Part shown: piece after piece, positions 7,219 through 41,246 of the stretch
How positions within the stretch are numbered: the stretch's first letter is position 1
How the letters are laid out: the number at the start of each line of letters is the position of its first letter
NCBI GenBank assembly: GCA_043826565.1
Contig: JBDRPX010000034.1
Coordinates: forward strand, 1,096-65,095
DNA length: 64,000 nucleotides
Reading direction: 5' to 3'
Source of the DNA: Candidatus Omnitrophota bacterium
Lineage (GTDB): Bacteria > Omnitrophota > Gorgyraeia > B26-G9
Program-made: the position numbers and the translations under genes
The notes under the pieces: generated by a model
What the model was told of the DNA's origin: nothing
The model's database searches: none
The model's input: the letters and a program-made list of their open reading frames with translations, nothing else

Positions 7219-8038
7219 ATATAAAGTTCGCCCTAAGAAAAGGCTTGGACAAAACTTTCTGGATGATGAAAATGCGCTTAATCAAATTGCCTCCGCCGCC
7301 GGAATATCTAAAGAAGATCATGTCTTGGAGATCGGCGCCGGTATTGGGAATTTAAGTATTCTTTTAGCCGAAAAAGCCGGTAAGTTCTATGCTTTGGAAA
7401 AAGATAATTCCTTAGAAAAAATACTCAAAAAAACACTCGTCAAATCAGATAACTCTAAAATTATCATATCGGATATTCTCCAATTCAACTTAGACAGTAT
7501 TTATAAAGACAAAAAGCTTATCGTTGTCGGAAATCTTCCTTATTATATAACCTCTCCGATACTGCTGCATTTAATAAAGCAAAAAACCTGCATAAAGACA
7601 ATCCTGATAACCGTGCAAAAAGAAGTCGCCAAACGGATTACCGCCTCTGCCGGGAATAAGGATTACGGAAGATTAAGCTGCCTTTTACAATTTTACGCCA
7701 AAGCAGAATTACTGGAAATATTTCCTAAAAGACTCTTTATCCCTCAGCCGAACGTGGATTCCGCTCTGGTAAAGCTTGATATTTTGGACAGCCCGTCCAT
7801 TGACGTAAAATCAGAAGAAATGTTTTTTAAGGTCGTAAAAGCTATATTCAGCCACCGCCGAAAAACACTGCTAAACAGCATGCTCGCCTCCGGCAGCCTG
7901 GGATTAAGCAAAGAAGTTTTGGGAAAAACTTTAGAACAGCACGGGATATCTCCGGCAATCCGCGGAGAACAACTAAGCCTTAAAGAGATCGGTAAACTAG
8001 CCGATGCTTTTGACTTAGTTATCAAAAAGATCAAATAG
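7190..8038 (+). CDS. rsmA: 16S rRNA (adenine1518/1519-N6)-dimethyltransferase
   Basis: LGQNFL, the EIGAGIGNLS SAM-binding motif and GNLPY. Confidence 0.85.
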   Translation: MSQPSAVLAKYKVRPKKRLGQNFLDDENALNQIASAAGISKEDHVLEIGAGIGNLSILLAEKAGKFYALEKDNSLEKILKKTLVKSDNSKIIISDILQFNLDSIYKDKKLIVVGNLPYYITSPILLHLIKQKTCIKTILITVQKEVAKRITASAGNKDYGRLSCLLQFYAKAELLEIFPKRLFIPQPNVDSALVKLDILDSPSIDVKSEEMFFKVVKAIFSHRRKTLLNSMLASGSLGLSKEVLGKTLEQHGISPAIRGEQLSLKEIGKLADAFDLVIKKIK

Positions 8039-9716
8039 AACTGCCGGTCATAATCTCATTCTGTAACCCGAAGAAAGGCACCAAATCCAACACAATACTG
8101 CTTTGCACCATATCTTCAGTAACTAAGCCGCTTTCTAAAACTATCTTGCGCAGATACCGGTCCCATCTTACCTGCAATTCCTCATCAATAAATTTAAAGC
8201 CGCTGCTCAGGTAAAATAGTATTGCTTTAGAACTAAGTCCGTCCGGATTTGCTATTTGCCAACTGGACATCCTGACTTTTTCTGCTCCTAGAACTGTCCG
8301 GACCATTTCCAAAAATGCGCGAAAAGCACTTTTACTTCGGCTGCCGTGATGACGGTATTCTTTAAAAACATGAAAAGTAAGCACTGCTGTTTTCGGCTCG
8401 TTAGATATCAAACCCAACTCTACACTTCCATAACCAATAACTTCATCATTATGCATAACCGCCAAATAGTATGCTTCCGGGTCATAAACTCCAGGATATC
8501 CCTCATCCTGCCCAAGTAATATTGTTTTAACATCGTCTTTACCCTCAGCGATATAAACATGATTAGCATCCACATCCAATGCTGAGTTAAGTATTGATCT
8601 GTTACGATCCTCTAAGGCAGTTGCCAGATCATCCGCTAATCTCCTTGCCGATAAATCCCCGGCTTTTTTCACAGTAACCTTAGAAATCATATTATTATCG
8701 ATATTGATCGATGCCCGCGATGCTAAATTCTCAATCAATGTTCCGGTAAACAGTGCCGCCTGATGCGGATTAATATGCAGGGGAACTCCTAAATAATGAC
8801 GGCTTAACTCTGAACTATTGATAAAAAAACACACCTCGCTGCGTTCACAAACCGATATTATCGGCGGCGCCATTTGCTGAAAACTGTCTTTAGCTTTGTA
8901 CTCATCCATTTCGGCAGCTGTCCCCACAATAATATCAATATCCAGATCGGTAACTCCTCCGTTAACCGGAGAACTCTCCAGCTCTCTGAGTCCCAATATT
9001 GTTTCCGGAATATTAACATGCTTCGTTTTCGCATTATCCGGCGGTCCTAAGCGGTTTATTTTAACCAAATGGCTCGCCATCCCTGTAGTGACCAAATATC
9101 CCAGATAATCTGCCGGGCTCAATTTTGAAATACCGAATTCAATTTCTTTCTGCCAATCACAATTTTGTTTACGGTGAAGCGGTTTGTTCTGATGCGGCCC
9201 GAAATCTCCGTGCGCGTCAAGATGACGCCACTCTACCCCGCCGCGATCAATAATCTCCTGGGCTTTTTCCCGATAATGTTCAAAGAAAAAAGAATATGAC
9301 ATATTATGCTGGCCGCCCCAATAGATCTTTTTATTATTCGCAAGCGTTATCACAACATAATACTCTCCGCCGACTTTATATTTCGTGCCGTTCAAATAAA
9401 CTTCCAGCACCGGATAAATAACTGCCTGTCCCGGTTTTTCAAAATCAAACTGTTTCTGTTCGATAACCGCGTCAGAAAAAATAAATTCCTTATCAATCTT
9501 AATAACAAAATCCTCTTCAACCAAAGGTCTGGGAATAGAATCACTGTTGTATTTAGGGAGAAGATCATCTAAGGCATTGAAAAAACTTTTCTTAAGCAAA
9601 ACCTGCTCAATATTTATTGAAGGAGATAATTTATCTGTAGAAACAGGTCCGGCAAATAAATTTGCCGGTATCGATAGAACTAATATTATGAGGATTATTT
9701 TTTTTAATAATTTCAT
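8031..9716 (-). CDS. Secreted protein with C-terminal GNAT acetyltransferase fold; member of the VQxFL-leader / LSP / [AS][IL]-COOH family
   Basis: Likely start at the internal ATG (MKLLKKIILIILVLSIPANLFA signal peptide). The mature N-terminus is GPVSTDKLSPSINIEQVLLKKSF. The C-terminal roughly 110 aa resemble a GNAT domain (VIGYGSVEL...HGSRSKSAFRAFLEMV). The tail is ...TGSSI. Confidence 0.6.
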   Translation of the reverse strand: MKLLKKIILIILVLSIPANLFAGPVSTDKLSPSINIEQVLLKKSFFNALDDLLPKYNSDSIPRPLVEEDFVIKIDKEFIFSDAVIEQKQFDFEKPGQAVIYPVLEVYLNGTKYKVGGEYYVVITLANNKKIYWGGQHNMSYSFFFEHYREKAQEIIDRGGVEWRHLDAHGDFGPHQNKPLHRKQNCDWQKEIEFGISKLSPADYLGYLVTTGMASHLVKINRLGPPDNAKTKHVNIPETILGLRELESSPVNGGVTDLDIDIIVGTAAEMDEYKAKDSFQQMAPPIISVCERSEVCFFINSSELSRHYLGVPLHINPHQAALFTGTLIENLASRASINIDNNMISKVTVKKAGDLSARRLADDLATALEDRNRSILNSALDVDANHVYIAEGKDDVKTILLGQDEGYPGVYDPEAYYLAVMHNDEVIGYGSVELGLISNEPKTAVLTFHVFKEYRHHGSRSKSAFRAFLEMVRTVLGAEKVRMSSWQIANPDGLSSKAILFYLSSGFKFIDEELQVRWDRYLRKIVLESGLVTEDMVQSSIVLDLVPFFGLQNEIMTGSSI

Positions 9717-9744
9717 ATTATTTAATAGCAAATTACAATCAACA

Positions 9745-12700
9745 TTATATCGCTTGCTCAATAACTTCAAAACTATAACCATGTTCCATTCCAGTTCTAT
9801 CCCCATGAGAAACAGTTTCAATATTAGCTATAAATTGCTGCCTTATCGAATCCGAAGGAATAACATCATCCATTTCTACCGAGGGAACTCCTTCCAAAAG
9901 AGAAAGTAAATTCCTTATACGGGAGATCACACCCTGAAAAGCCATGGCAGAATCACCGTTTTTTTCTGTTCTTATATTTGTGTCGGCAATCCCGATAAGC
10001 GTACGCTGTAACAGCGGTTCCAAACGAGCTTTTAAAATCGGCAGTTCATAAGCTGAATAACTATTAAAGGTCACGTCCGCATTTACCCAGCTTGTATAAG
10101 TATACGCCAGCTGAGCGTTTCTTCGCAACGGCCATTGCTGGACAATATCAACTACTTTTCTGCCCAAATTTACATGGCTAAGTATATGCCGCATAAAACG
10201 CAGATCCAATGATGTCAATGGACGGTTTCCGGATAATTTAAAATTCGGCGCAGTATTCACGAAAACACGGTAAAGCTGTTCATCTTTTAAAACTCCGGAT
10301 TTTCCGGCGATCTCATCGGATAAAGCATAATCCCCTTCGATCACATACAGATCATCATTTTCCAGAGTTATTGTTTCCCTGACAAATTCTCCGTCTTTTC
10401 TGACCACTACATGCAATACCTTAATATCCGGATCTAAAATCCGGCGAATAATATCCTTCATCCGGATGACCCGGGCATTATATATCTCTTCCTGGTTAAG
10501 CTCTTTTTCCTCCTGAAGAAAATCTGTATACTGCCTTAACAGCATATCAATATGGATCATCTTTACTTTTCTGCCTTTTTCCTTTAAATCCTGAGCTACC
10601 CTTTTGGAAAAAGATATTTTTCCGCTGGTAGTCGGCCCGCTGACCAAAACAAAACCTCTTTTTCCCGGCGAAAATTCTTCATCAATACTATCTACAATAC
10701 GCCCGATCTCTTGGGTATGCTTTTCCTCGTTCTTTCGGATCAGTTCACCCAGTTTATTTTCCCGGCAAACCTGCTGTAAATGCTCCAGCGTACGCGGCTG
10801 AAGCCCCAGCTCACCATATCCCCGGTAAGGAATTCTGCCGGTCTTAGAAAATATCCTCTGCAGCCGCGGACTGCGGGCAATTTCCGCATCAATAACTCTG
10901 GCCATACTCAAAATAAAAGCCGCCTGACGCAGATCCGTCTTATATTTTTTAGCGATTTCTAAAACTGTGATCGTTTCGCTTTCAATCCGCTCTTCAAGCA
11001 TTTTATCCACACTGGTTTCTTCCCAGGCCTTACCTTCAATATTCTGCAGCCATTCAAAATAAGAAACCGTAACCCCTCCGACATTTGCTAAAATATCCGG
11101 AATGATCAGAATACCTTTATTTCGCAAAATCGGATCCGCTTCCGGAGTAGTCGGATTATTCGCTAATTCCAGAAGAATATCACAATTAACATCTGCGGCA
11201 TTAGCTATAGTGATCTGATTCTCTATCGCCGCCGGCACTTTTACATTTGTATGCACTTTCCAGAAAAGCGACTGTTTTTCTTCTTCCTGTTGTAAAATTT
11301 GATACACCCAATCCTGATAATCACCAAATCTTTCATCGATCACAAGTTCGGAAGCATTTTTTAACTGCCGGAATTTCAAGGTAACCTTTCCGCCTTTTTT
11401 ACTGACATATCCGTTTTCGATCAGATTTGCCAAAAGCTCCTTTGCATCCGAAGTAATTCGGGAAAAATCCGTTTCCGCCACACTGCCTTTTAAAAATTGC
11501 GTTCCGGTCCTGTCCAGAAAATCCTGGGAAACTGTACTAAACTCGTATAGTCGGTCATCGGACTTTTTACCCAGCACTTCCATTAATTCTTCCAAAGGAA
11601 TACCCTGAGGATTATAAAGCGTTCCGGTATGGTCCTGCCATAAATTCAACTGCGCTCCGGCAGTATTAATTGAACACGCGTAATACTCTCCCACATTACC
11701 TCCGCCCTGAACTCCCATGGTCATTTCCCGAATATCTTTACTAAACAATGCCTTTGCCCTCGCACTCAATTGACGGCCAACCGCATCACTGGAAACATCT
11801 ATTAACTGCGGAAAATGATTCAACATTGACCGCAAAGCTAAAAATCCGCCAAACCCGGTAGCTTTAGTCCTGCCTTTTGATCCGCCTTTCTCCACCGGCT
11901 TACCGGTTATAACTCCCAGTTCCGAGGCATCCAGAATGCCGAACATATCCGCGCGCTTAAGTCTTAAATAATAATTTAAATATGGTGTTTCTAATGGATC
12001 TTCGGAATTTTTAGATTTTACTTTCAGCAGCCCTCTTTCCATTCTCTTATCATCTATTTTACGGCTCCTGGCCTGGATTCTTAAATATTCATCCACAAAA
12101 ACAGCCATCATATCTGCTCCTGTACCCACATCCGGTGCCGGTACATCAATATAAGGTCCCACTGCTCCTTTTTTGGTAAGCTCCCGGGCAAAACCCCGGA
12201 CAATATATGCTTTAAGAGTGTCTGCCTTTTCTGCATAATCCGCGCTTTCCTGTAAGATCTTCTTAATTTCCTGATTTAAAAATTCTCTTAGTCCCGTATC
12301 TTCACCAGTACTGGTATAATGCATCAGTTCACCGAGAGCTTCTAAAAGAACCTCCTGGATATCCCGCCCCAGACTGTCTATAAAACCTTTCCTATCTTCT
12401 ATCTCCTGCCCGATAGCCTGAGAAAATCGCCTTAGTTTTTCTGCTTTGTCTTTTAATCCTTTAGCCTCTTTTTCATACCCTGAGATAACATTATTAACTT
12501 TATCTTCGATAACAACATCGCCTTTTCCTCCGCCGTAAGGGATACCGATCACGGCATTTTTTACCGTCATCAATGTCGCCAAACCCGCAGCTGTAGCCTT
12601 TGCCTCTTCCAATGTTTCTCCATGAACAAGAAGCCAGCGGAATCCGCCTTTAGACGGCCCCAAAGCATCACTTTGCGAAACACGAAATCCCCAAACTTTT

Positions 12701-13110
12701 ATTTTTTTTCCATCCGGCATAGGAATTTTGAAAGTAACGGTAGTAACTCTATTCGGATCCAGCAATATATTTCTCGGCTCTTTTAAACGGCTGGCTACCA
12801 GCAGATCATGTACCTTTCTGGATAAAAAACCTTTTTCATTAATAGACTCATCAACAAATACCGGATCAAGTCCGATCATTTCTGCCGCGGCCTGATAATG
12901 GATTTTTGCCGATTCCAGAATAGAAGGAGTTTCCCCGTCATGACGCGCAGCCAATATCATTTCTTCATTTCCCGGCATAAACGCCGCTCTGACAGCATTA
13001 ATCTCCAGGTGCACTGTCGGCGCTAAAGTATCACTTTGACGCATATCTGCCCAGGCAATCCCCGAAGAAAGAAATGTTTGTATAGTCACTGCTGCAATAA
13101 TCCTTAGCAT
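9745..13110 (-). CDS. Secreted fusion protein: Glu/Leu/Phe/Val-dehydrogenase-like domain plus uridine-kinase/PRK-like P-loop domain; family member
   Basis: Signal MLRIIAAVTIQTFLSSGIAWA; mature N-terminus DMRQSDTLAPTVHLEINAVRAAF. GDH-family signatures are present: LGPSKGGFRW (the K-G-G-x-R catalytic loop), IPYGGGKGDV, and the GGGNVG Rossmann motif. Downstream, LVSGPTTSGKISF (Walker A), YVIEGDYAL and LDLRFMRHI resemble uridine kinase / phosphoribulokinase. The tail is ...EVIEQAI. Confidence 0.65.
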   Translation of the reverse strand: MLRIIAAVTIQTFLSSGIAWADMRQSDTLAPTVHLEINAVRAAFMPGNEEMILAARHDGETPSILESAKIHYQAAAEMIGLDPVFVDESINEKGFLSRKVHDLLVASRLKEPRNILLDPNRVTTVTFKIPMPDGKKIKVWGFRVSQSDALGPSKGGFRWLLVHGETLEEAKATAAGLATLMTVKNAVIGIPYGGGKGDVVIEDKVNNVISGYEKEAKGLKDKAEKLRRFSQAIGQEIEDRKGFIDSLGRDIQEVLLEALGELMHYTSTGEDTGLREFLNQEIKKILQESADYAEKADTLKAYIVRGFARELTKKGAVGPYIDVPAPDVGTGADMMAVFVDEYLRIQARSRKIDDKRMERGLLKVKSKNSEDPLETPYLNYYLRLKRADMFGILDASELGVITGKPVEKGGSKGRTKATGFGGFLALRSMLNHFPQLIDVSSDAVGRQLSARAKALFSKDIREMTMGVQGGGNVGEYYACSINTAGAQLNLWQDHTGTLYNPQGIPLEELMEVLGKKSDDRLYEFSTVSQDFLDRTGTQFLKGSVAETDFSRITSDAKELLANLIENGYVSKKGGKVTLKFRQLKNASELVIDERFGDYQDWVYQILQQEEEKQSLFWKVHTNVKVPAAIENQITIANAADVNCDILLELANNPTTPEADPILRNKGILIIPDILANVGGVTVSYFEWLQNIEGKAWEETSVDKMLEERIESETITVLEIAKKYKTDLRQAAFILSMARVIDAEIARSPRLQRIFSKTGRIPYRGYGELGLQPRTLEHLQQVCRENKLGELIRKNEEKHTQEIGRIVDSIDEEFSPGKRGFVLVSGPTTSGKISFSKRVAQDLKEKGRKVKMIHIDMLLRQYTDFLQEEKELNQEEIYNARVIRMKDIIRRILDPDIKVLHVVVRKDGEFVRETITLENDDLYVIEGDYALSDEIAGKSGVLKDEQLYRVFVNTAPNFKLSGNRPLTSLDLRFMRHILSHVNLGRKVVDIVQQWPLRRNAQLAYTYTSWVNADVTFNSYSAYELPILKARLEPLLQRTLIGIADTNIRTEKNGDSAMAFQGVISRIRNLLSLLEGVPSVEMDDVIPSDSIRQQFIANIETVSHGDRTGMEHGYSFEVIEQAI

Positions 13111-13144
13111 CTTTCGATTCCTTGAAACCATCTCTCATTCTCCT

Positions 13145-14218
13145 TTAAATAGAATATTCTACTAATTTATTTATTTCCAAATCCGCTAAAAATTTCCCCA
13201 CAACTTTTAAATCATCCGCCGATAAATACTCAAGATCTTCCCTGAGTCCGTTATAATCATCTTTCCCATGTATTCCCCAGCCGATCTTAAAAACAAAAGC
13301 TTTTAAATATACTTCGTCATTTGTTCCCAGCATTTGTCTGGCAATATTAATAAGCTTATCCCGGCGATCCGCATATTCCCAGGCATTAAATTCATCTTCT
13401 CCAAAAAAATGTCCGCGCCTTAACGAATTTACCACAACTGCTTTTACATACGATTGATAATCCCGTTTATTACCCTGCAGGTTTCTCTTCTCAAAAAAAG
13501 ATTTTACCATATATTCTCTGCCGGAAAACCGTTCCGCAAGATCATTGATCGTCACTCCCGGACGCGGAGATAAAACCAATCCTTCCATAGGCTGTCGATG
13601 ATACCAGAGAAAAAACCGGAGTTCTTTCATTGTGATATCTCCTATAATATCTTCCGCTTCCCACTTACTTCTCCAATCCGCAAATTTTTTAAGCCCGTGC
13701 TTGCTTTGCAGCAAACTTACCAGTTCATCATATCGCCGTCTTATCCGAAAATCACGCATATTTACACTGCGCGTAAGCCGTTCCGGAGAAAACATCTCAC
13801 TAATTATATCCCGCCAATTATAAAGAATGTCCATTTCACTAAAAAACTTGATCCCAATACTTTTAACTAAAAAACTCTCTTGAAGTTTTTCAATTATCTG
13901 CTTGCGGGTATCGGAAACCAGTCCTCCATATTCTCCGCCTTTAAGCCAGACTATCGAAAACCCCTGATCTTCAACATCTCTCTGTTTAATTTCATCCAAT
14001 ACGGCTAAAAGATCTGCTTTATTATTCTGTAATAACGCAAAACTATTTTTAAGAACTTCCCCATTAACTTTAATCTCCGGAGATAATGTATCAATTTGCG
14101 GCTGCGCACAAGCATTTCCTAATATCAAAAACGCCTGGACAAACACCAGGCAAATAATCCCCGCATTATTATTAATTTTCACAATTTTTATTAATCCTTT
14201 TCTAAAGGGATCGCGCAA
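13145..14218 (-). CDS. Secreted hypothetical protein; family member
   Basis: Signal ...AGIICLVFVQAFLILGNACA; mature N-terminus QPQIDTLSPEIKVNGEVLKNSF; tail ...NKLVEYSI. No recognisable catalytic domain. Confidence 0.5.
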   Translation of the reverse strand: MRDPFRKGLIKIVKINNNAGIICLVFVQAFLILGNACAQPQIDTLSPEIKVNGEVLKNSFALLQNNKADLLAVLDEIKQRDVEDQGFSIVWLKGGEYGGLVSDTRKQIIEKLQESFLVKSIGIKFFSEMDILYNWRDIISEMFSPERLTRSVNMRDFRIRRRYDELVSLLQSKHGLKKFADWRSKWEAEDIIGDITMKELRFFLWYHRQPMEGLVLSPRPGVTINDLAERFSGREYMVKSFFEKRNLQGNKRDYQSYVKAVVVNSLRRGHFFGEDEFNAWEYADRRDKLINIARQMLGTNDEVYLKAFVFKIGWGIHGKDDYNGLREDLEYLSADDLKVVGKFLADLEINKLVEYSI

Positions 14219-14921: not shown

Positions 14922-15020
14922 TCATTTTCCAATTATTTGTTTATTATAATTTCTTTTTATCTTTTACTTTTTTAATCCCTATTCCCTATACGCTAACCGC
15001 TCTACGCTATACGCTGATTT

Positions 15021-16481
15021 TTATATCGCCTGCTGCACAAGTATCGGCAGTATCGCCGCCTGTTCGTCAAACTCCGGTAAACCATCCTCTGTTTCAACAC
15101 CGATAACTACATCCGCGGGAAAAATTGAAGGCTCTCCATTCAAAACCGCCTGCCATTCCGGCCTTTGTATTTCAAATAATATCGCCGCCAAATCCGATAA
15201 ATGGTCTGTTTGACGAAGCGCACGATAAGCCTGCTCCAAAGTCCCGGGAACATCCGGATGTGATTTTTTCCATTGCCTGGTTTTGGTATTGATAATAAAA
15301 TAACTTGAGGAACCGCCGGAGGCTTTATACGCGATTGCTATCTCACGGCCTCCAGACCTTGCCATTATTTCTACTTTAGTAATCTTAAACGAAGATGCTG
15401 TTGGCGAATCAGCAACGCTTATGGGAATTATCTGCTTAACTTCTGTTGCCATCTCTACAGAAATTGTACTCTTTTTGGAATCTGCTGTTCCTTGAGCCGC
15501 CGGATTAACATCAGCATCAGTTTCTCCATCAAGCGGCTGTAATCTGAAACCGGTAAAACTTCCGCTCGCATCCGGATCAGCATCAGCAGGATCAGCATCA
15601 GCAGAATCATCAGCCAATCCATCTTCATATTTATCCGCCATCATACTTTCAGCAATCGCAGTATCCATGGCTTCTGTTATCCGGTCTGTATGTTGTTTAA
15701 ATACTTCACCATCAATATGTTTATGTTGGAACAAAACCAGTAAAACCCTGTTCTCCCGGGAAAGCCCCTGCTCTCTTTGCTCGGGCATATTCATATTTTC
15801 TTTTTGCACATCAATTATAAGCCCGGATATATGCGCCACAGAAGTGTAGAATGCTGCCTTATTTCGCAATATCCCTGCGGAGATAACCGCGATATTATTT
15901 TTTATCCGGATAGCTCTGGTCCGCTGGATTTCTTTACCTTGCATACGCAATAGAAAAGTACCGTCCTTTTCTATTCCAAACGCGCAATGCGCCGCCTGTT
16001 TCGGCAAATGTGTTACTATGTATAATTCCGGAGCCATAACAATTGTTTTTCCGCTATAGCTATATAACCGCATCCTTGCCTGTATAACCATCTTTTTAAG
16101 CGCTTCATCCTGTTCGGCATTACCCAGACTACTCGCGGTTTTTTTGCCGTCTTTATATACTTCTATAGAACACTCTCCGGTTTTCCCATTGAGAATTTTA
16201 ATTTTAATATATTCCCCGCCCGGAGAACGCATTGCCTTTAAAAACGAGTGGTGTTCTTGCGGAGTTATATCTCCTTCTGATGAATAGTTTGTTCTTAATT
16301 CCAAATTGTACGCTGCGAATTTTTGGGCAAATTTTTGCAAATCAGAAATACTGACCTTTGGCGCCAGGGTTGCACTCAGTTCATTCTTACGCGTTGACAA
16401 ATCCGCGGCCTGCGCGTTCTGCACACACAGGAATACTTGAAACACCATCCACACTGCTGTTTTCCTGATTATTTTTTTCAT
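15021..16481 (-). CDS. Secreted hypothetical protein with an acidic (D/A/P-rich) linker; family member
   Basis: Signal MKKIIRKTAVWMVFQVFLCVQNAQA; mature N-terminus ADLSTRKNELSATLAPKVSISDLQKFAQKF; tail ...LPILVQQAI. Confidence 0.55.
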   Translation of the reverse strand: MKKIIRKTAVWMVFQVFLCVQNAQAADLSTRKNELSATLAPKVSISDLQKFAQKFAAYNLELRTNYSSEGDITPQEHHSFLKAMRSPGGEYIKIKILNGKTGECSIEVYKDGKKTASSLGNAEQDEALKKMVIQARMRLYSYSGKTIVMAPELYIVTHLPKQAAHCAFGIEKDGTFLLRMQGKEIQRTRAIRIKNNIAVISAGILRNKAAFYTSVAHISGLIIDVQKENMNMPEQREQGLSRENRVLLVLFQHKHIDGEVFKQHTDRITEAMDTAIAESMMADKYEDGLADDSADADPADADPDASGSFTGFRLQPLDGETDADVNPAAQGTADSKKSTISVEMATEVKQIIPISVADSPTASSFKITKVEIMARSGGREIAIAYKASGGSSSYFIINTKTRQWKKSHPDVPGTLEQAYRALRQTDHLSDLAAILFEIQRPEWQAVLNGEPSIFPADVVIGVETEDGLPEFDEQAAILPILVQQAI

Positions 16482-16527
16482 TTTTCTCCGATCTTTACAC
16501 TTTACACTTTTAACTTTTAACTTATTT

Positions 16528-17982
16528 TTATATCGCTTGCTGCACTAATTGCGCACCAGTAACATTAATGGGAAATATTACTTTTTCCTGAGTCAGCACA
16601 GGAACTATGTTTGTCTGAATAATCCGGGGATTACACGGTAAAATAATAATAAATTTTGCTCCGGTAATTTCACCCTGAATATCCCGGCAATTCTCTGCGC
16701 TTAAAGTTCCGCCAAAATATCTTTCAATGATCCGGCGGCAAAGCGAAAGTCCCAGACCATGAGCTGTCCCATTACCCGCTCTGGTGCTGAATCCTTCGGA
16801 AAAAATCAGATCAATTACCGCAGCTTCCTGGTTATCGGCATTTTCATGAGCTTCTGTCCACATTCCCAATACCTTTGCCTGCTTGATCAAATCAGTAATT
16901 AAAAACCCCTTCCCATTATCCGTAAATTCAAATATTATGTTATCTTTTGTCTTTTTCGCTTCTACAGTACAATCAAACATTTTATTTTGGCCGTTCATGG
17001 CATGGGCTAATAAATTTCTTTGTAAATTTTTAACAACAAATTCAAACCCATCGCGATATCCAAAATATTCTAACGGCTCAATTTTCCCTTTATACAAAAC
17101 CTGCGCTTGCACAACTTCCGCCAGATCAAACCGTTCCTGTTTAATGCCTTCGATAACCACATTAAGCCGTTTAATCATAAAATCAATAAAATCAAGCGCA
17201 CCCTGTGCCGCCCTTTTTAGAAATTTATCAGCCCCAGGCCGTTCCGCAATTTTTTTCAGCCATTCATAAGATGTATTAACCTCATAAACCGAGCTTAAAA
17301 GTACCATTACACCTCGCGGATCAGTAACATGATTATGCGCAAGCATATCTTTAATTCTGGATAATTTGGTAAATAGATCCCGGCAAATAGAAATAATTCT
17401 TTCTATTTCTTCAAGATCATCACTTTTAACAACATCCAGATTGTTTTCCTGATGCAAAAGATCTCCCAGCTGATGAAAAACCATACCAAACTCAACATGA
17501 ATCCGCTCAACTGTAGAAAATCCCATTTCTTTGCGATTAAAAATTGCCGCGGCATATTCACCAAAATCAGTAAAACTGTATCTTGTTCCCCCCTTTGCTC
17601 CTTTGTTTTTAAGATCCGGGATAAGATATCCCTTTTCTACAAGCTCGCTAAATCTCTGTTCAATCTCTTCAACAGATAAATTCCGGGCCGCAACCCGCTT
17701 AAAACGCCTCGCGGTTATCCTGGCCTCCTGGGCAACTTTATAGAGATCGGCATTCGTAACAATTTTTTCAAAAACATCGATCCAGTCACTTTGCTCTATA
17801 GTAATTTTTTGAACATCAAACTGTTGAAATGCGGACTGAAACTGCGGGATAAAAATATTTAGTTGCGGAGAGAGATTGTCTTCTGCCCAAACAACCTGCC
17901 CAAGCATAAGCATTTGAATAACAATAGCAATAAGCACTATGTTTAATCTTAATTTTTTAGATATAAAAAAACCGGTTTTCAT
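16528..17982 (-). CDS. Secreted histidine-kinase-like (GHKL) ATPase domain protein; family member
   Basis: Start taken at ATG 17982, which has a GGAG 6 nt upstream. Signal MKTGFFISKKLRLNIVLIAIVIQMLMLGQVVWA; mature N-terminus EDNLSPQLNIFIPQFQSAFQQF. The C-terminal HATPase_c shows G1 DNGKGF and G2 GLGLSLCRRI boxes and a possible degenerate H-box, LAHNHVTDPRG. The tail is ...AQLVQQAI. Confidence 0.6.
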   Translation of the reverse strand: MKTGFFISKKLRLNIVLIAIVIQMLMLGQVVWAEDNLSPQLNIFIPQFQSAFQQFDVQKITIEQSDWIDVFEKIVTNADLYKVAQEARITARRFKRVAARNLSVEEIEQRFSELVEKGYLIPDLKNKGAKGGTRYSFTDFGEYAAAIFNRKEMGFSTVERIHVEFGMVFHQLGDLLHQENNLDVVKSDDLEEIERIISICRDLFTKLSRIKDMLAHNHVTDPRGVMVLLSSVYEVNTSYEWLKKIAERPGADKFLKRAAQGALDFIDFMIKRLNVVIEGIKQERFDLAEVVQAQVLYKGKIEPLEYFGYRDGFEFVVKNLQRNLLAHAMNGQNKMFDCTVEAKKTKDNIIFEFTDNGKGFLITDLIKQAKVLGMWTEAHENADNQEAAVIDLIFSEGFSTRAGNGTAHGLGLSLCRRIIERYFGGTLSAENCRDIQGEITGAKFIIILPCNPRIIQTNIVPVLTQEKVIFPINVTGAQLVQQAI

Positions 17983-18310
17983 TCTCAGCTCCATAGCTGT
18001 TTTAAACGACAATTTTTCACACACTTATTACAAAGTTAATAAAAGCTCTAAAGTATACCATAAGTTTATATATCCTGCAATGTCAGAACCGGACTTTATG
18101 AAAAAATTTTATCACACCTAACATATTGAAAATAAATGTGATATAATTTAGGTAGTAAATGTTTTTTATCATTTGAAAGACCCCTTGATTCTGGGATTTA
18201 AATTCAGTAAAAAAATAGTGCGCGTCACTTGTAAACTATATATTAATATGGTATACTTTTTTAACTATTTTAACTCGCAATTAAACTTGATTCTAACAAG
18301 GAAATTATTT

Positions 18311-21300
18311 ATGATAACTCCAATAAAGACAAACAATAAAGCGCTAAAGAAAATTTTCGCGCTGATACTTGTTCAAATATTCCTATTTACCGGGATAGTC
18401 CAGTCCGCTCCTCAGGAATTCCTAGCGCCGTCAGTCCAGGTAACCCATGATGCATTTAAAACAGCCTTTGGAAATGCTACAACAACTATAAGAGGCCCAC
18501 GGGATACATTTCGGGAAACTGAAAATCCTCCGGCACCTTTATATGTAATTCCCGGACACGGCATGGATGTACGATTTCCTTTTATCGGCTCTGGAAAAAT
18601 CAATAATCGACTACGTACGTATAAAGAAGATTTAGTGCTCAGCACCATTGCAGCCCGTAACGCTAGAGCTGAAGCTTTTCTAAACACTGGAGATAAAGCA
18701 AATTTTATTTTTATAGATTTACATCTAGCCGACCATCTCTTAAGCACCTTCCCGCCAGAACATACAAATCAGGCATCGAAAGAAAGACTTATTCAGCAGC
18801 TGGAAGACTACACCTTACTCTTAGAAAAATTCTTAAATAATAATAAACAAGGTAATTACGCCTCCATATCAAATCCCGAAGGAGCTCATCACACAGAAAT
18901 ACTCACGCTTTCTTTAACAGAAATGAATGTGATTAATTTTGTATCACAACAGTTTAATGCTCACATTACACATTCTGCTACAGATAGCGGTGATCTTGTT
19001 GGCCGGACAAATGGAAAATGGGTAATGGTTGGATTATATGAATTTCAAGGACAGGAAACTTATAACCCAATTCCGTTGGATAACATATCCGATTCCCAGC
19101 TACCAAAACACTGCAAATGTACAGTAGTGGATTTAACCTCGAGAAAACTAGAGAATATGAAACTATTACGCAAAGCAAATGCACGTTACCATAAACAACG
19201 TCCTTTAGAAAACATAACTGATGAAGTTCGAGCTGAGATACGAAATGGATTTGAAGTTCACGGCGTTCCTAATGGTATTGGGAGAAAAGTCGTGCATGGA
19301 ACTATGGTTGTTGCGGATATTATAGATTCCCGTCCGGACTTATCATATCCAATGCCCCCATACTCCCCGGAAAATTTTCGAACTGCACGAGGAGAATTAA
19401 GACTTGCAACATCTAAAATTTATGAGAGTTTTAGTTTTCAGGATAACAATAAAGATAGAGCTCGCAAGATTCTTTCTTCCGCCATAAAAAATGCCAGCAC
19501 AGAATCCGGACGTACCGGATTCAACCCAACTCTTTTCTTTCTAGCTAGTATTAGAGATGTAATTCTGCAACTTAACACTGCAGAAGACAAGACTTTGAAA
19601 GAAGATTTAGCCAATATCTCCAAACAGATATCTGATACTATTTACCCCCCATTACATGCCTCTTTCGATGATGATCAGATAAAACCTCAAAGTAAGAAAG
19701 AAAATAATCTGGCTAAAGCTGCAAAAGAATACCTGGATAATTATTTAGCAAAGGAAAAACAATATAGAAAAGCAAAAGAAGCTCTTGTACCACAAATACA
19801 AGCTGAAAAAAGCATAGAAGTAATAGAACTCGAAAAGCAAATAGCAGAACAATCAGCACTAAGAACAAAATCAACAGATGACACAATTAGAGAACAATAC
19901 ATAGACACTATTAATAAACTAGAAATACAATTAGAATCAGTTAAAAGCGACAAGCTAAAAGCTCTTGAAGACAACTTCAATAAACAAAAAACTCTTGAAG
20001 AAGATATGCACAAATATTGGGGCCTTGGGAAAAGCGTATGGCATGTTGCAGTAAAAATTTTAAGAGAACAAGATTGTTCTATTCCAGAAGCAATTTTCAG
20101 AGCTGCTAATCCTTATTGTGTATATCTAATGCGTTATGCAGATAGTGATCACTTTGCGGGATCATATACTACCTTTGCTGAAATATCCAGTGAACTTCTT
20201 TCAAACTGGGAAATAGTAACCAATGCTCCGATAACCCGGAAAGTCTCTTTAAAAAATGTTCCTGAAAATAAACCTTTTATTCTCTTCTTGCCCAGAGATT
20301 TAAAAAACCCAACTGAATATTTTGAACTTCGTGATAAATATCCAAACATGGTAGCTATCATCAGCCGCGCCGGATTGAAGCACTATGGAACCTCGGCTAA
20401 ACAAGAACGCTTTCCAGTACTTAATGAAGCTGCTTCTCTTGTCAATGGACGTAGAGTCTCTACCCGACAGGCAATCGAGGGAAATGAGCCGGCTATTCTT
20501 GACACTGAAACACATATTTTGAAATTATGGCCAACAAGGGAAGAGCTTATTGCTGCACAACTAGAAGAAAAAATGGAACAAGCAGAGGAAATATTTCTCA
20601 ATCGAAGGATTTCTCTACCAGTTGTAACCACCGATGGAGTATCTGTCCAGGTTATGGCCAATCTTGATCGAGCTGAAGATGCCTCTAAATTAGCGAAGCT
20701 CGGCATAAAAAATGTCGGTCTTTACCGCACAGAATATGCTTATATGCAGCGTGGAGACATAACCGAAAATGAATGGGTAAGAATCTTTACCACCCTGGTA
20801 CAGGATTCTCAAGCAGATTTTATCAGCATGCGATTAGCAGACCGTAAAGTTACCGGAAAAGGTGAAGACATAAAAAATGTACCTGCATTCGGTAATAGTT
20901 CTGAAGAAGGTATCCGATTTCTACTTTTTGATAGTGTTGGCAGAAATATTGCGCTAACCCAGTTGCGAGCAGCAATGCGCGTATATGCTAAACATAAAGT
21001 AATTGGAGCTATGTTCCCGATGATCTCAACTACCGATCACGGAACCCGCGCACTGGCACTTTTCGATGAAGCTAAACAAAATCTCATTGATAAAGGGCTC
21101 GTAACAGAGCGTGACCTCGAAGGATTTAACAAGGGGTTAATGTTTGAAACACCATCTGCAGTAGATGCAAGCAAAGGATTAATGGAACGATTTTCTTTCG
21201 GGAGCTTTGGTTCTAATGATTACACCTCATTATCCGAATCTTTTTCGCGCGGTGATGAAGGATCAACAGAGCGTCTCACGGAATTTACCCCGAACATATT

Positions 21301-21748
21301 ACATGCTTCAGCAAAACTGGTTCAATCTGGTATGCCAGAAATAACAAGTGGACGTACCTCTAATTTCCCCCTATCTATCTGTGGAAATGTCGCTTCAAAC
21401 CCTTATTATCTACTCTATGCTGCATATGCAGCTTCTAAAGGAGGATTAATAAAACCAAGTGTTGGCCTGGGAGAAACAGCAAAGGTAATGGAATTCATCC
21501 GTCATATTGATACACGAAAATTAGCTGAAATTTTTGAAGATTCCCGGACACAAAATGATGAAATCACCTTAAAAACAGCTTTGACTCCGGAAGTAGAGCG
21601 AATCACAAAGGAAATCGCACTAGCTACTGATGCTGTATTTCAGGAAATAATGTTTAATACACCTGTTGAATCTTCATCAGATGATTCAATTTCGGGATTT
21701 CCGGCAACTCAGTTCACTCAGATGGATCTCATAGAACAGGCAATATAA
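18311..21748 (+). CDS. Large secreted protein with central coiled coil and C-terminal PEP-utilising-enzyme (PPDK / enzyme I-like TIM barrel) domain; family member
   Basis: Real start at ATG 18311: MITPIKTNNKALKKIFALILVQIFLFTGIVQSA; mature N-terminus APQEFLAPSVQVTHDAFKTAF. The PEP-utilisers barrel motifs are GLYRTEYAYM and FSFGSFGSNDYTSL. The tail is ...QMDLIEQAI. Confidence 0.7.
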   Translation: MITPIKTNNKALKKIFALILVQIFLFTGIVQSAPQEFLAPSVQVTHDAFKTAFGNATTTIRGPRDTFRETENPPAPLYVIPGHGMDVRFPFIGSGKINNRLRTYKEDLVLSTIAARNARAEAFLNTGDKANFIFIDLHLADHLLSTFPPEHTNQASKERLIQQLEDYTLLLEKFLNNNKQGNYASISNPEGAHHTEILTLSLTEMNVINFVSQQFNAHITHSATDSGDLVGRTNGKWVMVGLYEFQGQETYNPIPLDNISDSQLPKHCKCTVVDLTSRKLENMKLLRKANARYHKQRPLENITDEVRAEIRNGFEVHGVPNGIGRKVVHGTMVVADIIDSRPDLSYPMPPYSPENFRTARGELRLATSKIYESFSFQDNNKDRARKILSSAIKNASTESGRTGFNPTLFFLASIRDVILQLNTAEDKTLKEDLANISKQISDTIYPPLHASFDDDQIKPQSKKENNLAKAAKEYLDNYLAKEKQYRKAKEALVPQIQAEKSIEVIELEKQIAEQSALRTKSTDDTIREQYIDTINKLEIQLESVKSDKLKALEDNFNKQKTLEEDMHKYWGLGKSVWHVAVKILREQDCSIPEAIFRAANPYCVYLMRYADSDHFAGSYTTFAEISSELLSNWEIVTNAPITRKVSLKNVPENKPFILFLPRDLKNPTEYFELRDKYPNMVAIISRAGLKHYGTSAKQERFPVLNEAASLVNGRRVSTRQAIEGNEPAILDTETHILKLWPTREELIAAQLEEKMEQAEEIFLNRRISLPVVTTDGVSVQVMANLDRAEDASKLAKLGIKNVGLYRTEYAYMQRGDITENEWVRIFTTLVQDSQADFISMRLADRKVTGKGEDIKNVPAFGNSSEEGIRFLLFDSVGRNIALTQLRAAMRVYAKHKVIGAMFPMISTTDHGTRALALFDEAKQNLIDKGLVTERDLEGFNKGLMFETPSAVDASKGLMERFSFGSFGSNDYTSLSESFSRGDEGSTERLTEFTPNILHASAKLVQSGMPEITSGRTSNFPLSICGNVASNPYYLLYAAYAASKGGLIKPSVGLGETAKVMEFIRHIDTRKLAEIFEDSRTQNDEITLKTALTPEVERITKEIALATDAVFQEIMFNTPVESSSDDSISGFPATQFTQMDLIEQAI

Positions 21749-21799
21749 AAAATAGCGTGTAGCGTAGAGCGAGTAGCGTTTAGAAATCCTCTTAGCAGA

Positions 21800-29420: not shown

Positions 29421-29433
29421 TTTGACCTTTTGA

Positions 29434-31654: not shown

Positions 31655-31721
31655 CATCGACAGATACCTCTTTATTTCCAATATCTAAAATAGTTCAAGT
31701 TCTGGGAGAAATATGATAGTG

Positions 31722-35191: not shown

Positions 35192-35204
35192 AACAAGATC
35201 CCTA

Positions 35205-41173: not shown

Positions 41174-41246
41174 AATAAACCCCTTCTTTTATCGGCTCTT
41201 TCGCAATTAATGTGATATTTTCTTTGTTTTTATTTTATAATCGATT

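What the first reader, a model, noticed from the sequence alone, without database searches (positions are those of the whole stretch)
8031..21748. Cluster of 7 secreted enzymes with a shared signal peptide, mature N-terminal LSP motif and [AS][IL]-COOH tail: candidate cargo set of an undescribed sorting or delivery system
What the sequence shows. Seven consecutive genes encode proteins with unrelated cores. The cores are a GNAT domain, a GDH-like domain fused to a uridine-kinase-like domain, two proteins of unknown fold, a protein with an acidic linker, a GHKL ATPase, and a PEP-utilising phosphotransferase. All seven nevertheless share three elements. (a) A near-identical Sec signal peptide with a Gln inside the hydrophobic core: TIQTFLS, VFVQAFLIL, LVQLFLT, VFQVFLC, IVIQMLML and LVQIFLF, each followed by an AxA-type cleavage site. 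(b) Immediately after cleavage, a 16-residue motif with the same spacing in every case: (T/K)L(S/A)P-x-[IV]-x-[IVL]-x4-[LIA]-x3-F. Examples are TLSPEIKVNGEVLKNSF, TLSPEISINAQLLQQVF, KLSPSINIEQVLLKKSF, TLAPKVSISDLQKFAQKF and TLAPTVHLEINAVRAAF. (c) A C-terminal tail phi-phi-x-x-[AS]-[IL]-COOH. Four end exactly in (E/Q)QAI (LVQQAI, LVQQAI, VIEQAI, LIEQAI) and the others end in VEYSI, IARSL and TGSSI. The last codons are conserved at nucleotide level (cag cag gcg ata taa).

Inference. A bipartite N+C tag on catalytic domains that need ATP, NAD or PEP is not explained by periplasmic function. It looks like a dedicated targeting, docking or processing signal. Candidate analogies are PEP-CTERM/exosortase, LPXTG/sortase, T9SS C-terminal domains, a PDZ or Prc-type C-tail reader, termini joining into a shared clasp, or effector delivery into a host or prey. 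None of the known signals matches.
Basis: partly seen in the sequence, partly recalled or inferred. Interest (0 to 1): 0.92.

Follow-up and report, generated by a model that had tools for sequence, protein, structure and literature searches.

The report
Omnitrophota enzymes sharing a two-ended tag
Neighbouring genes of an uncultured Omnitrophota bacterium encode unrelated ATP-, NAD- and PEP-type enzymes that all carry the same unusual export-type leader at the front and the same six-residue tail at the back, an undescribed address label that also links them to this phylum's puzzling giant proteins.

Summary
Seven adjacent genes, plus an eighth cut by the window start, share three elements. The first is a Sec-like leader with fixed geometry: K/R, 7 hydrophobic residues, Gln, then 10 residues ending A-x-A/C/S. 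The second is a TL(S/A)P...F motif. The third is a tail of two hydrophobic residues, two variable ones, then [AS][IL]-COOH. The cores are unrelated: a GDH plus uridine-kinase-like fusion, a GHKL ATPase, a PEP-binding domain, a probable GNAT and unknown folds.

A second Omnitrophota genome carries the same tags on 12 complete proteins. Five sit in the syntenic miaA-ksgA site and seven in a second cluster. Their cores are mostly different: GGDEF, ATP-grasp/methyltransferase, GT1 and others. Across both genomes 19 of 19 leader-positive ORFs carry the tail, against 1 of 51 others (p = 3e-16).

Pfam and NCBIfam have no model for either tag, and the literature search found no mention. AlphaFold places both tags outside the folded core. 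Homologous modules occur inside giant Omnitrophota proteins of at least 4,380 and 6,890 aa, which begin with a related leader.

The best reading is a lineage-specific export and targeting tag for small relatives of the giant-protein enzyme modules. Export, cleavage and the receptor are all inferred. No machinery was found, and a database-wide census failed.

The parts
8031..9716 (-). G1, 561 aa. Divergent member: the leader lacks Gln, the motif is KLSPSINIEQVLLKKSF, and the tail is MTGSSI. The C-terminal domain is probably GNAT-like.
   Evidence: The leader model scores 37 bits. There is no Pfam or PDB sequence hit. The GNAT fold hint is weak. NCBI accession MFH2138731.
9745..13131 (-). G2, 1128 aa. 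Leader, then a Glu/Leu/Phe/Val dehydrogenase with a large helical insert, then a P-loop nucleoside-kinase-like domain, then the tail VIEQAI.
   Evidence: It has orthologs with the tags (P0002), with other leaders (P0004, P0005, P0007), without any leader (P0006, L008), and embedded in giant ORFs (L006, L007).
13145..14182 (-). G3, 345 aa, with an unknown fold and the tail LVEYSI. The core is homologous only to internal modules of two large protein fragments.
   Evidence: an exhaustive HMMER search gave only P0050 and P0051 as credible relatives. Alignment.
14202..14906 (-). G4, 234 aa, function unknown, tail LIARSL. Its ortholog is M5 in the syntenic locus of the second genome (41% identity).
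15021..16481 (-). G5, 486 aa. An unknown N-terminal domain, then an acidic linker, then the tail LVQQAI. Its ortholog is M4 (32% identity).
16528..17982 (-). G6, 484 aa. A GHKL (HATPase_c) ATPase with intact DxGxG and GxGxGL boxes, and the tail LVQQAI.
18311..21748 (+). G7, 1145 aa. An unknown region of about 700 aa, then a PEP-utilizers_C domain, then the tail LIEQAI. It is transcribed divergently from G6. Its ortholog is M1 (29% identity).
1..1155 (-). G8, the eighth leader-bearing gene (MNKAKQKNSIRIICFVVIQTLLFVDCAWC-LSPAVSVDVESIQKSF). It is cut by the window start, so its tail is not visible.
   Evidence: Leader model 51.7 bits.
12979..13131 (-). Example of the leader, from G2. It has a basic n-region, then 7 hydrophobic residues, then Gln, then 10 residues ending AWA, then a short spacer, then TLAP-x-[IV]-x-[IVL]...F. 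The equivalent segments in the other genes are G1 9582-9716, G3 14039-14182, G4 14742-14906, G5 16329-16481, G6 17827-17982, G7 18311-18469 and G8 1021-1155.
9748..9765 (-). Example of the six-residue tail, from G2 (VIEQAI). The equivalent segments are G1 8034-8051, G3 13148-13165, G4 14205-14222, G5 15024-15041, G6 16531-16548 and G7 21728-21745.
18050..18259 (.). Divergent control region between G6 and G7. It holds two inverted TGGTATACT boxes that resemble an extended -10 element. The same box lies upstream of M1 and M2 in the second genome.
   Evidence: (I8)
14960..15020 (-). 3' spacer after G5, made of short TAGCGT/TAGGG-type repeats. It has a 47-nt inverted copy after G7 (21737-21783). 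Related repeats of roughly 7-nt period that contain stop codons lie between G6 and G5 (16482-16527).
   Evidence: (I1, D9)

Best explanation
The seven genes, plus the eighth at the window start, form two divergent operons in an Omnitrophota genome. They encode separately translated, small relatives of the enzyme modules that this phylum otherwise strings together in giant proteins. Each carries a lineage-specific two-ended targeting tag.

**Step 1 (inferred from sequence rules).** The N-terminal leader acts as a Sec-type signal. It has a basic n-region, an 18-residue hydrophobic segment ending in A-x-A/C/S, and an acidic flank that favours an N-in/C-out orientation. The protein crosses the inner membrane and is probably cut by signal peptidase I. 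The invariant mid-helix Gln (Glu in one member), at a fixed distance from both the last basic residue and the cleavage site, marks these leaders as a special subclass. I infer that it is read inside the membrane or by a dedicated targeting factor. The analogy is the way glycines in the hydrophobic core route accessory-Sec substrates. One candidate reader is the divergent SecA-like modules reported in Omnitrophota giant proteins.

**Step 2 (inferred).** After cleavage, two flexible ends are exposed: TL(S/A)P, a short alternating strand, a turn and an amphipathic helix ending in Phe at the N-terminus, and two hydrophobic residues, two variable ones, then [AS][IL] with a free carboxylate at the C-terminus. 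These serve as common handles. A shared receptor uses them to retain, assemble or pass on the cargo outside the cytoplasm, either into the cell's extracellular coat or giant-protein layer, or across the outer membrane towards a host or prey cell.

**What is shown:** the tags, their independence from the cores, their conservation and co-occurrence, their flexibility in a model, and the kinship with giant-protein modules.

**What is not shown:** export, cleavage, the receptor and the destination.
For: **The tags are real and tightly linked.** 19 of 19 leader-positive ORFs have the tail, against 1 of 51 others (p = 3e-16). The leader model scores members it was not trained on at 39-57 bits.

**The tags sit on unrelated cores.** In the window these are GDH plus kinase, GHKL and PEP-binding domains. 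In the second genome they are GGDEF, ATP-grasp plus methyltransferase, GT1 and GNAT. Paralogs share only the leader.

**The locus is conserved while its content varies.** The cluster lies at miaB, TPR/SPOR, miaA | cluster | ksgA-pdxA-surA in both genomes. Only G4, G5 and G7 have syntenic orthologs, at 29-41% identity.

**The leader has signal-peptide features and rigid geometry**. Ordinary secreted proteins in the window (SurA, PstS, MsrAB, TolC-like, porin) lack the Gln and the motif and do not match the model.

**Window leaders are conserved as protein, not as DNA repeats**. This argues for selection rather than recent gene conversion.

**AlphaFold places the tags outside the core.** In the G2 model, residues 1-60 and 1094-1121 have pLDDT below 50 while the core is confident.

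**The same GDH-kinase enzyme exists without leader or tail in other lineages** (P0006, L008). This suggests the tags were added to a cytoplasm-type enzyme.

**There is a link to giant proteins.**
- G2-like modules lie inside ORFs of at least 4,380 and at least 6,890 aa. These ORFs begin with a related leader that scores 40-43 bits and reads ...DISWAY..TLAPP.
- The giant ORFs carry HATPase_c, TPR, pseudouridine synthase and arginase domains.
- G3-like modules are internal to two large protein fragments.
- Published catalogues of Omnitrophota giant proteins list the same domain repertoire, predict it to be mostly extracellular, and report divergent SecA domains and neighbouring type II-like secretion loci (10.1101/2023.11.21.568195; 10.64898/2026.06.07.730766).

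**No known model matches either tag**, and no paper in the library mentions the motifs.
Against: - No signal-peptide predictor could be run, and there are no experimental data. Export and cleavage rest on the positive-inside and -3/-1 rules applied by eye.
- The cargo needs ATP, GTP, NAD(P), SAM, acetyl-CoA, PEP or NDP-sugars, which are not expected outside the cytoplasm. Pseudouridine synthase in a leader-bearing giant protein is hard to reconcile with any extracytoplasmic role unless it acts in a host cell.
- No candidate receptor, protease or secretion system is syntenic with any of the three clusters.
- The tags were seen in only two genomes. Related leaders were seen in three more lineages. 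More distant GDH-kinase orthologs have other N-termini and tails ending in ..RAA..TSA or ..IAA, and they sit alone among housekeeping genes.
- The giant proteins fetched show no internal tail or leader motifs, and their C-termini were out of reach. Whether the tail belongs to the giant-protein system is therefore unknown.
- The low pLDDT of the tags may simply reflect a shallow alignment.
Confidence: 0.5

Rival explanations
1. Docking tags rather than a sorting signal. The exposed N-terminal motif of one protein binds the C-terminal tail of another, or both bind a giant scaffold protein. The separately encoded enzymes then assemble non-covalently into the equivalent of a giant multi-enzyme protein or coat. 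This would resemble the N- and C-terminal docking domains that join PKS and NRPS subunits.
For: - The modules are homologous to modules that are covalently joined in giant proteins.
- Both tags are short, flexible and terminal.
- The N-motif has an alternating strand-like x-[IV]-x-[IVL] pattern, and the tail could form a strand or an amphipathic helix end.
- The genes are co-transcribed and some are translationally coupled.
- G3's tail aligns where the giant fragment P0050 has its inter-module ...SSV-DNGG linker.
Against: - All heads and all tails are nearly the same, so no order could be specified.
- The AlphaFold monomer gave no head-tail contact, though this is weak evidence.
- There was no complex prediction tool to test the idea.
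- The LSP motif does not recur at module boundaries in the giant proteins.
- This model explains neither the conserved Gln nor the rigid leader geometry.
Confidence: 0.2
2. Uncleaved membrane anchor. The leader stays in the inner membrane as a single helix, and its central Gln drives helix-helix association. The enzymes are thereby clustered at the membrane. The tail is a stability or quality-control determinant, for example read by, or protecting from, a PDZ-bearing C-terminal protease.
For: - A polar Gln or Glu exactly in the middle of an 18-residue hydrophobic segment is a classic driver of transmembrane helix association (established biophysics, not tested here).
- Trp near the end of the segment (AWA, AWC) suits a membrane interface.
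- A PDZ protein with an N-terminal hydrophobic segment is encoded in the window.
- The 2026 preprint argues that many long Omnitrophota proteins are membrane-anchored.
Against: - The A-x-A/C/S site, at a fixed 11 residues after Gln, is conserved like a cleavage site.
- The charge distribution puts the catalytic domains outside the cytoplasm even if the leader is uncleaved, so the cofactor paradox remains.
- The conserved TL(S/A)P...F motif is left unexplained.
- The PDZ gene is 13 kb away and is not syntenic in the second genome.
Confidence: 0.17
3. No dedicated function. The shared ends are leftovers of duplication or gene conversion among neighbouring genes, or the 'genes' are pieces of one giant gene broken by assembly errors.
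For: - In the second genome, leader-coding DNA is 67-94% identical between some neighbours over about 170 nt (L001 D1 and D2).
- The tail codons and 3' spacers of G5, G6 and G7 are repeated at the DNA level (D9 and I1).
- Giant genes are known to be split by assembly errors (10.1101/2023.11.21.568195).
Against: - Window leaders share no DNA repeats yet keep the protein pattern.
- The tags persist in orthologs at 29-50% identity in another genome, and on unrelated cores.
- Each gene has its own start codon. Those checked (G2, G4) have a Shine-Dalgarno-like sequence, and several spacers carry stops in all frames. The two operons also have promoter-like boxes.
- An independent assembly and NCBI's annotation give the same genes.
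- The leader-tail association has p = 3e-16.
Confidence: 0.03
4. A variable anti-phage defence island that happens to encode membrane-tethered enzymes.
For: - Gene content varies at a conserved chromosomal site.
- An AbiE toxin-antitoxin pair lies 4 kb away.
- GHKL, GGDEF-like and GNAT domains occur in some defence systems (from general knowledge).
Against: - None of the eight proteins matches any of the 5,027 PADLOC models.
- Uniform signal-peptide-like leaders and tails are not a feature of known defence systems.
- The homologous modules sit in giant surface-associated proteins.
Confidence: 0.02

Closest known systems
Omnitrophota giant proteins ('archaeovorins'; West-Roberts et al. 2023 preprint; 2026 complete-genome preprint)
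   Same: The phylum is the same. The domain repertoire is the same: HATPase_c, GNAT, methyltransferase, GT1, GGDEF and PEP/pyruvate dikinase parts. G2-like and G3-like modules are directly homologous to internal modules of giant ORFs. Two giant ORFs start with a related leader. Both are predicted to be extracytoplasmic despite cytoplasm-type enzymology.
   Different: These proteins are 234-1128 aa, not 10,000 aa or more. Each is a separate gene with its own leader and a conserved tail. No multiple transmembrane helices and no SecA, C39 or S8 domains were found in them. Neither paper, in the passages searched, describes a leader motif or a C-terminal tail.
Specialised signal-peptide subclasses: accessory-Sec (SecA2/Y2) leaders with glycines in the hydrophobic core, and YSIRK-G/S leaders
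   Same: A conserved feature inside an otherwise ordinary Sec-type signal peptide that may route a defined cargo set to a special pathway or place. This is a works-like analogy drawn from my own knowledge.
   Different: The motif here differs: a mid-helix Gln at a fixed position, with no KxYKxGKxW or YSIRK. The organism is Gram-negative-type. No accessory SecA2/Y2 genes were seen nearby. A C-terminal tail is also present.
C-terminal sorting signals: PEP-CTERM/exosortase, LPXTG/sortase, GlyGly-CTERM/rhombosortase, T9SS C-terminal domain
   Same: An N-terminal signal peptide plus a conserved C-terminal element on many unrelated proteins of one genome.
   Different: Those signals are a motif plus a transmembrane helix plus a basic tail, or an 80-aa beta-sandwich. 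Here the element is six residues ending in a free carboxylate. There is no hydrophobic helix and no model hit.
Free-carboxylate tail signals: PDZ ligands, Prc/Tsp and DegS recognition tails, peroxisomal PTS1 (paired with the N-terminal PTS2)
   Same: A very short C-terminal motif with a hydrophobic last residue that must be at the true C-terminus. In the PTS1/PTS2 case, the signals serve folded, cofactor-bearing enzymes.
   Different: The sequence differs: it is not S/T-x-hydrophobic, YxF, LAA or SKL. No reader has been identified. Here both tags sit on the same protein, after a Sec-type leader.
PKS/NRPS docking domains
   Same: Short, flexible N- and C-terminal elements on separately encoded enzymes that elsewhere occur as one megaprotein.
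   Different: Docking domains are pair-specific and cytoplasmic. Here all heads and tails are alike and follow an export leader.

Membership tests
Sec-type signal peptide cleaved by signal peptidase I | A basic n-region, a hydrophobic h-region of about 7-15 residues, and small residues at -3 and -1 | tested here: met
   Met by inspection in all eight window leaders and the 12 in the second genome. No predictor such as SignalP was available.
Sec-type signal peptide cleaved by signal peptidase I | Actual export and cleavage | not testable with these tools
   This needs N-terminal sequencing or reporter fusions.
Lipoprotein signal (lipobox, signal peptidase II) | L-[AS]-[GA]-C, with Cys at +1 | tested here: not met
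   Only some members have a Cys (..VAWC-G), and Trp sits at -1. Window members have AWA, ACA, ALA, AQA, VWA and VQS at that position.
Tat signal peptide | Twin-arginine S/T-R-R-x-F-L-K before the h-region | tested here: not met
   Most leaders have single K or R residues there. RRR occurs in only three paralogs of the second genome.
Type IV prepilin / class III signal | G|F(M)xxxE at the start of the hydrophobic segment | tested here: not met
   There is no G-F/M junction. The polar residue is Gln at position 8 of the segment.
PEP-CTERM, LPXTG, GlyGly-CTERM, PGF-CTERM sorting signals | A C-terminal motif followed by a transmembrane helix and a basic tail, detected by NCBIfam/TIGRFAM models | tested here: not met
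   No NCBIfam or Pfam hit. The proteins end six residues after the last variable region, with no hydrophobic helix.
T9SS C-terminal domain | A conserved C-terminal beta-sandwich of about 70-100 aa | tested here: not met
   No model hit. Sequences upstream of the last six residues are unrelated among members.
Outer-membrane protein beta-signal | A C-terminal aromatic residue (F or W) after alternating hydrophobics, on a beta-barrel | tested here: not met
   The terminal residue is I or L. The cores are soluble enzyme folds.
Bacterial microcompartment encapsulation peptide | A terminal amphipathic helix on enzymes encoded next to BMC shell genes, with no signal peptide | tested here: not met
   The N-motif could be partly helical, but it follows a signal-like leader. 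No BMC shell domain was found among the ORFs of 150 aa or more that were scanned with Pfam. That covers most of them, and the rest were read only by their ends and look like phosphate-transport and other housekeeping genes. Small ORFs were not scanned.
Omnitrophota giant proteins (archaeovorin type) | Homologous enzyme modules and domain repertoire | tested here: met
   compared.
Omnitrophota giant proteins (archaeovorin type) | Length in the tens of thousands of residues, with many transmembrane helices and SecA-like, C39 or S8 domains | tested here: not met
   Lengths are 234-1128 aa, there is one hydrophobic segment, and none of those domains is present.
PDZ-ligand type C-terminal tag | Binding of the free C-terminal residues by a PDZ domain | not testable with these tools
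   A PDZ protein exists at 35205-36611. No complex prediction tool was available, and the gene is not syntenic in the second genome.
Known anti-phage defence systems | A match to PADLOC models | tested here: not met

The most novel reading that the evidence does not exclude
The two tags define a dedicated delivery route in Omnitrophota. A Gln-marked leader hands cytoplasm-type, cofactor-dependent enzymes to a specialised export motor, such as the divergent SecA-like modules of the giant proteins. The exposed N-motif and the [AS][IL]-COOH tail are then read by a receptor. That receptor loads the enzymes into the extracellular coat or injects them into host or prey cells, where ATP, NAD and PEP are available. 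The tagged small proteins and the giant proteins would then be two packagings of one effector arsenal. The tail would also mark the natural module end, which hints at where giant proteins are cut.
Probability: 0.25. Interest if true: 0.9.

Novelty: new variant of a known kind. Interest (0 to 1): 0.72.

Why it matters
Omnitrophota are ultra-small, uncultured, probably predatory or parasitic bacteria. Their giant proteins carry dozens of cytoplasm-type enzyme domains that are predicted to lie outside the cell. Nobody knows how those proteins are exported, whether they are cut, or where the enzymes act.

A short two-ended label that can be recognised by sequence, carried by small stand-alone versions of the same modules, offers a tractable handle:
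- It can be searched for across the phylum to define the cargo set.
- It can be correlated with candidate machinery.
- It can be fused to reporters.
- It can be looked for in proteomes of the one cultured relative.

If the label is a true sorting signal, it would add a new type to the short list of bacterial protein-sorting tags. It would also explain how enzymes that need ATP, NAD or PEP can be useful outside the producer's cytoplasm.

Tried and rejected
1. **Census by leader profile in the 5.8-billion-protein index.** I tried twice, and no candidate scored. The same profiles score true members at 40-85 bits locally, and the window's proteins are in the collection. The failure therefore lies in the word-index retrieval and is not evidence of absence.

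2. **Exhaustive HMMER search with G3**. It returned two real relatives. The 7,296-aa hit P0049 looks spurious: by eye it is a long array of near-identical ~90-residue repeats (not scanned against Pfam), matched in 11 short stretches.

3. **Metagenome scan with the full leader alignment.** A narrower alignment found only the second genome.

4. **Idea that tail plus leader is a fossil inter-module junction of giant proteins.** This is rejected for L006 and L007. They have no internal tail or leader motifs, and the LSP model finds no internal copies in any of the four large proteins. A weaker form survives only as speculation. G3's tail aligns with the ...SSV that precedes DNGG linkers in P0050, and SS[SA]L recurs in P0051.

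5. **Look-ups of the window's own contig.** These failed.

6. **Tags conserved more than cores in ortholog pairs.** Not clearly so. Positions are kept, but identity is similar to that of the cores.

7. **Correlation between LSP/LAP variants and tail variants.** None of note, judged by eye.

8. **G1 versus the GNAT-bearing La protein.** No significant similarity.

9. **Defence-island reading.** No PADLOC hits.

10. **Linked secretion genes.** The MacB-HlyD-TolC genes at 27456-31681 are 6 kb away, lie beyond an AbiE pair, and are absent from the syntenic locus. I did not treat them as linked.

Full report
**Setting**

The window comes from a Candidatus Omnitrophota metagenome-assembled genome. 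G2 is 100% identical to NCBI protein MFH2138732, and the seven proteins are MFH2138731-37. Four are annotated as hypothetical; the other three carry only generic domain names (Glu/Leu/Phe/Val dehydrogenase domain-containing, ATP-binding, putative PEP-binding). Each is alone in its 90%-identity cluster, apart from a second assembly.

The cluster lies between miaA (21800-22741) and ksgA-pdxA-surA (5208-8038). Base composition is like the rest of the window.

**The observation**

An eighth leader-bearing gene runs off the window start.

- In 16 of 19 cases across two genomes, the last basic residue is followed by exactly seven hydrophobic residues and then Gln (Glu in one case).
- Ten further residues end in A-x-A/C/S.
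- A spacer of 0-22 residues with neutral-to-negative net charge follows, and then TL(S/A)P-x-[IVL]-x-[IVL]...F.

G1 is the outlier, with no Gln. G5 has a one-residue insertion in the motif.

The tail is two hydrophobic residues, two variable ones, then [AS][IL]. The dominant form is [LI][VI][EQG]QAI. Its Ile codon is ATA in 13 of 14 QAI tails.

In the window, only these seven ORFs of 150 aa or more end in [AS][IL]. Ordinary secreted proteins of the window have plain signal peptides and do not match a leader profile.

**The cores**

Confirmed domains:
- G2: Glu/Leu/Phe/Val dehydrogenase with the GGGKG catalytic motif, plus a P-loop nucleoside-kinase-like domain.
- G6: HATPase_c with intact ATP-binding boxes.
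- G7: PEP-utilizers_C.

G1, G3, G4, G5 and G8 have no family hit, even at permissive thresholds. G1's GNAT assignment rests on a poor single-sequence model whose top 50 PDB fold matches are nevertheless all GNATs.

None of the eight proteins matches a defence-system model.

**Conservation elsewhere**

The closest relative of G2 is P0002 (50% identity, from genome GCA_004196255.1). It has the same leader and ends in LVEQAI, although it carries about 790 extra residues between the kinase-like domain and the tail.

Its contig holds at least eight consecutive tagged genes. A second contig of that genome holds five more, at exactly the syntenic site: miaB, TPR/SPOR and miaA on one side, ksgA-pdxA-surA on the other.

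Only G4, G5 and G7 have orthologs there, at 41%, 32% and 29% identity. G2's ortholog is in the other cluster. The remaining members differ between the genomes.

The extra cores in that genome are GGDEF, ATP-grasp plus methyltransferase, a CheR-like methyltransferase, glycosyltransferase family 1 and a weak GNAT.

Pooling the loci, 19 of 19 complete leader-positive ORFs carry the tail, against 1 of 51 others (p = 3e-16). Leader profiles score members outside their training set at 39-57 bits.

In the window the leaders share no DNA-level repeats. The protein pattern is therefore maintained by selection, not by recent gene conversion. In the second genome some leaders are recent DNA copies.

**The tags are appendages**

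An AlphaFold model of G2, built from an 11-sequence alignment, is confident for the dehydrogenase and kinase-like domains. It gives pLDDT below 50 for residues 1-60 and 1094-1121.

Versions of the same GDH-kinase enzyme without any leader or tail exist in a Verrucomicrobiae MAG (P0006) and in an uncultured bacterium (L008). More distant Omnitrophota orthologs have other signal-like N-termini and tails ending in ..RAA..TSA or ..IAA. They sit alone among housekeeping genes.

**Link to giant proteins**

A scan of one genome per species, using the kinase-like half of G2, found the module inside two very large ORFs:
- one of at least 4,380 aa in Omnitrophota nW3bin14;
- one of at least 6,890 aa in a MAG labelled Planctomycetia.

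Both begin with a related leader (..LTFAMLVSDISWAYGDVSTATLAPP and ..SLVLIATFIAYDISWAYPD), which scores 40-43 bits. Both also carry HATPase_c, and one or the other carries TPR repeats (L006), pseudouridine synthase or arginase domains (both L007).

An exhaustive search with G3 found only two credible relatives. Both are internal modules of large protein fragments.

Two preprints describe this class of Omnitrophota protein:
- It is rich in HATPase_c, GNAT, methyltransferase, GT1, GGDEF and pyruvate-phosphate-dikinase parts.
- It is predicted to be largely extracellular or membrane-associated.
- It often carries divergent SecA domains and lies next to type II-like secretion loci.
- Its cleavage points are unknown.

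In the passages I searched, neither preprint mentions a leader motif or a C-terminal tail. A full-text search for the motif strings found nothing relevant.

**Gene organisation**

The cluster forms two divergent operons. A TGGTATACT box, resembling an extended -10 element, faces each way between G6 and G7. The same box precedes M1 and M2 in the other genome.

Some junctions overlap stop and start codons (ATATGATGA). Others are spacers built of short repeats, of roughly 7-nt period in the clearest cases, that contain TAG or TAA. Together with the Shine-Dalgarno-like sequences seen upstream of G2 and G4, and agreement between two assemblies, this excludes a broken giant gene.

**Interpretation**

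By charge distribution and the -3/-1 rule, the leader is a Sec-type signal that places the bulk of the protein outside the cytoplasm. The fixed mid-helix Gln and the rigid spacing indicate a specialised subclass.

I rank a dedicated export-plus-targeting tag first (about 0.5). It explains all three conserved elements, their uniformity across cargo, and the shared leader on giant proteins.

Docking between tags or onto giant scaffolds (0.2) and an uncleaved, self-associating membrane anchor with a quality-control tail (0.17) remain open.

The main difficulty for every extracytoplasmic reading is the cofactor dependence of the cargo. Delivery into a host or prey cell, consistent with the proposed lifestyle of the phylum, would resolve it but is untested.

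**Limits**

- No signal-peptide predictor or complex predictor was available.
- The database-wide census failed for technical reasons.
- The C-termini of the giant proteins were out of reach.
- No candidate receptor is linked to the clusters.

Noticed in passing
window 16482-16527, 14960-15020 and 21749-21783; L010 after M2, M3 and M5; L001 after Le and Lf: Spacers between and after the tagged genes are short tandem repeats that contain a stop codon, with a period of 7 nt in the clearest cases: AAAGTTA, TAGGGTG and TAGCGT-type units. A 7-nt period would put stops in all three frames. The (TAGGGTG)x5 run after M2 is a G3N4 x4 pattern that could form a G-quadruplex. A 47-nt stretch comprising the last tail codons, the stop and the spacer is shared in inverted orientation by G5 and G7.
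   Followed up: partly
window 18050-18072 (-) and 18237-18259 (+); L010 upstream of M1 and M2: A conserved TGGTATACT box, resembling an extended -10 element, sits on both sides of the divergent intergenic region in both genomes.
   Followed up: partly
P0050 (GCA_028717025.1, contig JAQUOR010000086.1; L015) and P0051: The large protein fragments that hold G3-like modules have recurring boundary motifs. S/H-[LIV]-DNGG occurs five times in P0050, and SS[SA]L occurs four times in P0051. The Gly-Gly ending recalls the cleavage sites of C39 peptidases, which are reported at the N-termini of Omnitrophota giant proteins. These could be the unknown processing sites.
   Followed up: partly
P0008-P0047: Anammox bacteria (Candidatus Scalindua, Brocadiia) encode proteins of about 1,100 aa that fuse phosphoglycerate kinase, an HHH domain and a Glu/Leu/Phe/Val dehydrogenase. 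These are the next-closest relatives of G2's dehydrogenase domain.
   Followed up: no
L007 248-15247: A leader-bearing ORF of at least 6,890 aa carries an RNA pseudouridine synthase domain and an arginase-family domain next to HATPase_c and GDH. These are odd cargo for a protein predicted to be exported. The MAG is labelled Planctomycetia, but the protein looks like an Omnitrophota type.
   Followed up: no
window 36797-39376 (-): An 859-aa protein with a PPDK_N (ATP-grasp) domain has neither leader nor tail. G7 carries only the PEP-binding C-terminal domain, so the parts of a pyruvate-phosphate-dikinase-like enzyme are split between a tagged and an untagged protein.
   Followed up: no
window 32339-36611 (-): A 978-aa protein with a plain signal peptide and no firm domain overlaps the end of a 468-aa PDZ protein that has an N-terminal hydrophobic segment.
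   Followed up: partly
window 25423-27120 (-) and 27456-31681 (-): An AbiEii/AbiEi toxin-antitoxin pair is followed by a MacB-type ABC transporter, a HlyD-family adaptor and a TolC-like outer-membrane protein.
   Followed up: no
window 40493-51126 (-): There are two tandem copies of a phosphate-uptake gene set (pstS, two permease genes, ATPase gene(s), phoU), then a porin and a PhoR/PhoB-like two-component pair. The first copy has two adjacent pstB-like ATPase genes.
   Followed up: no
tails of G2, G5, G6 and G7, and 9 of the 10 QAI tails in L001, L009 and L010: The terminal Ile of ...QAI tails is encoded by ATA in 13 of 14 cases (La uses ATT), while ...S-I tails use ATT or ATC. The sequence GC(G/A)ATAT(A/G)(A/G) may be constrained at the nucleotide level, for example by stop-start coupling as in ATATGATGA.
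   Followed up: no
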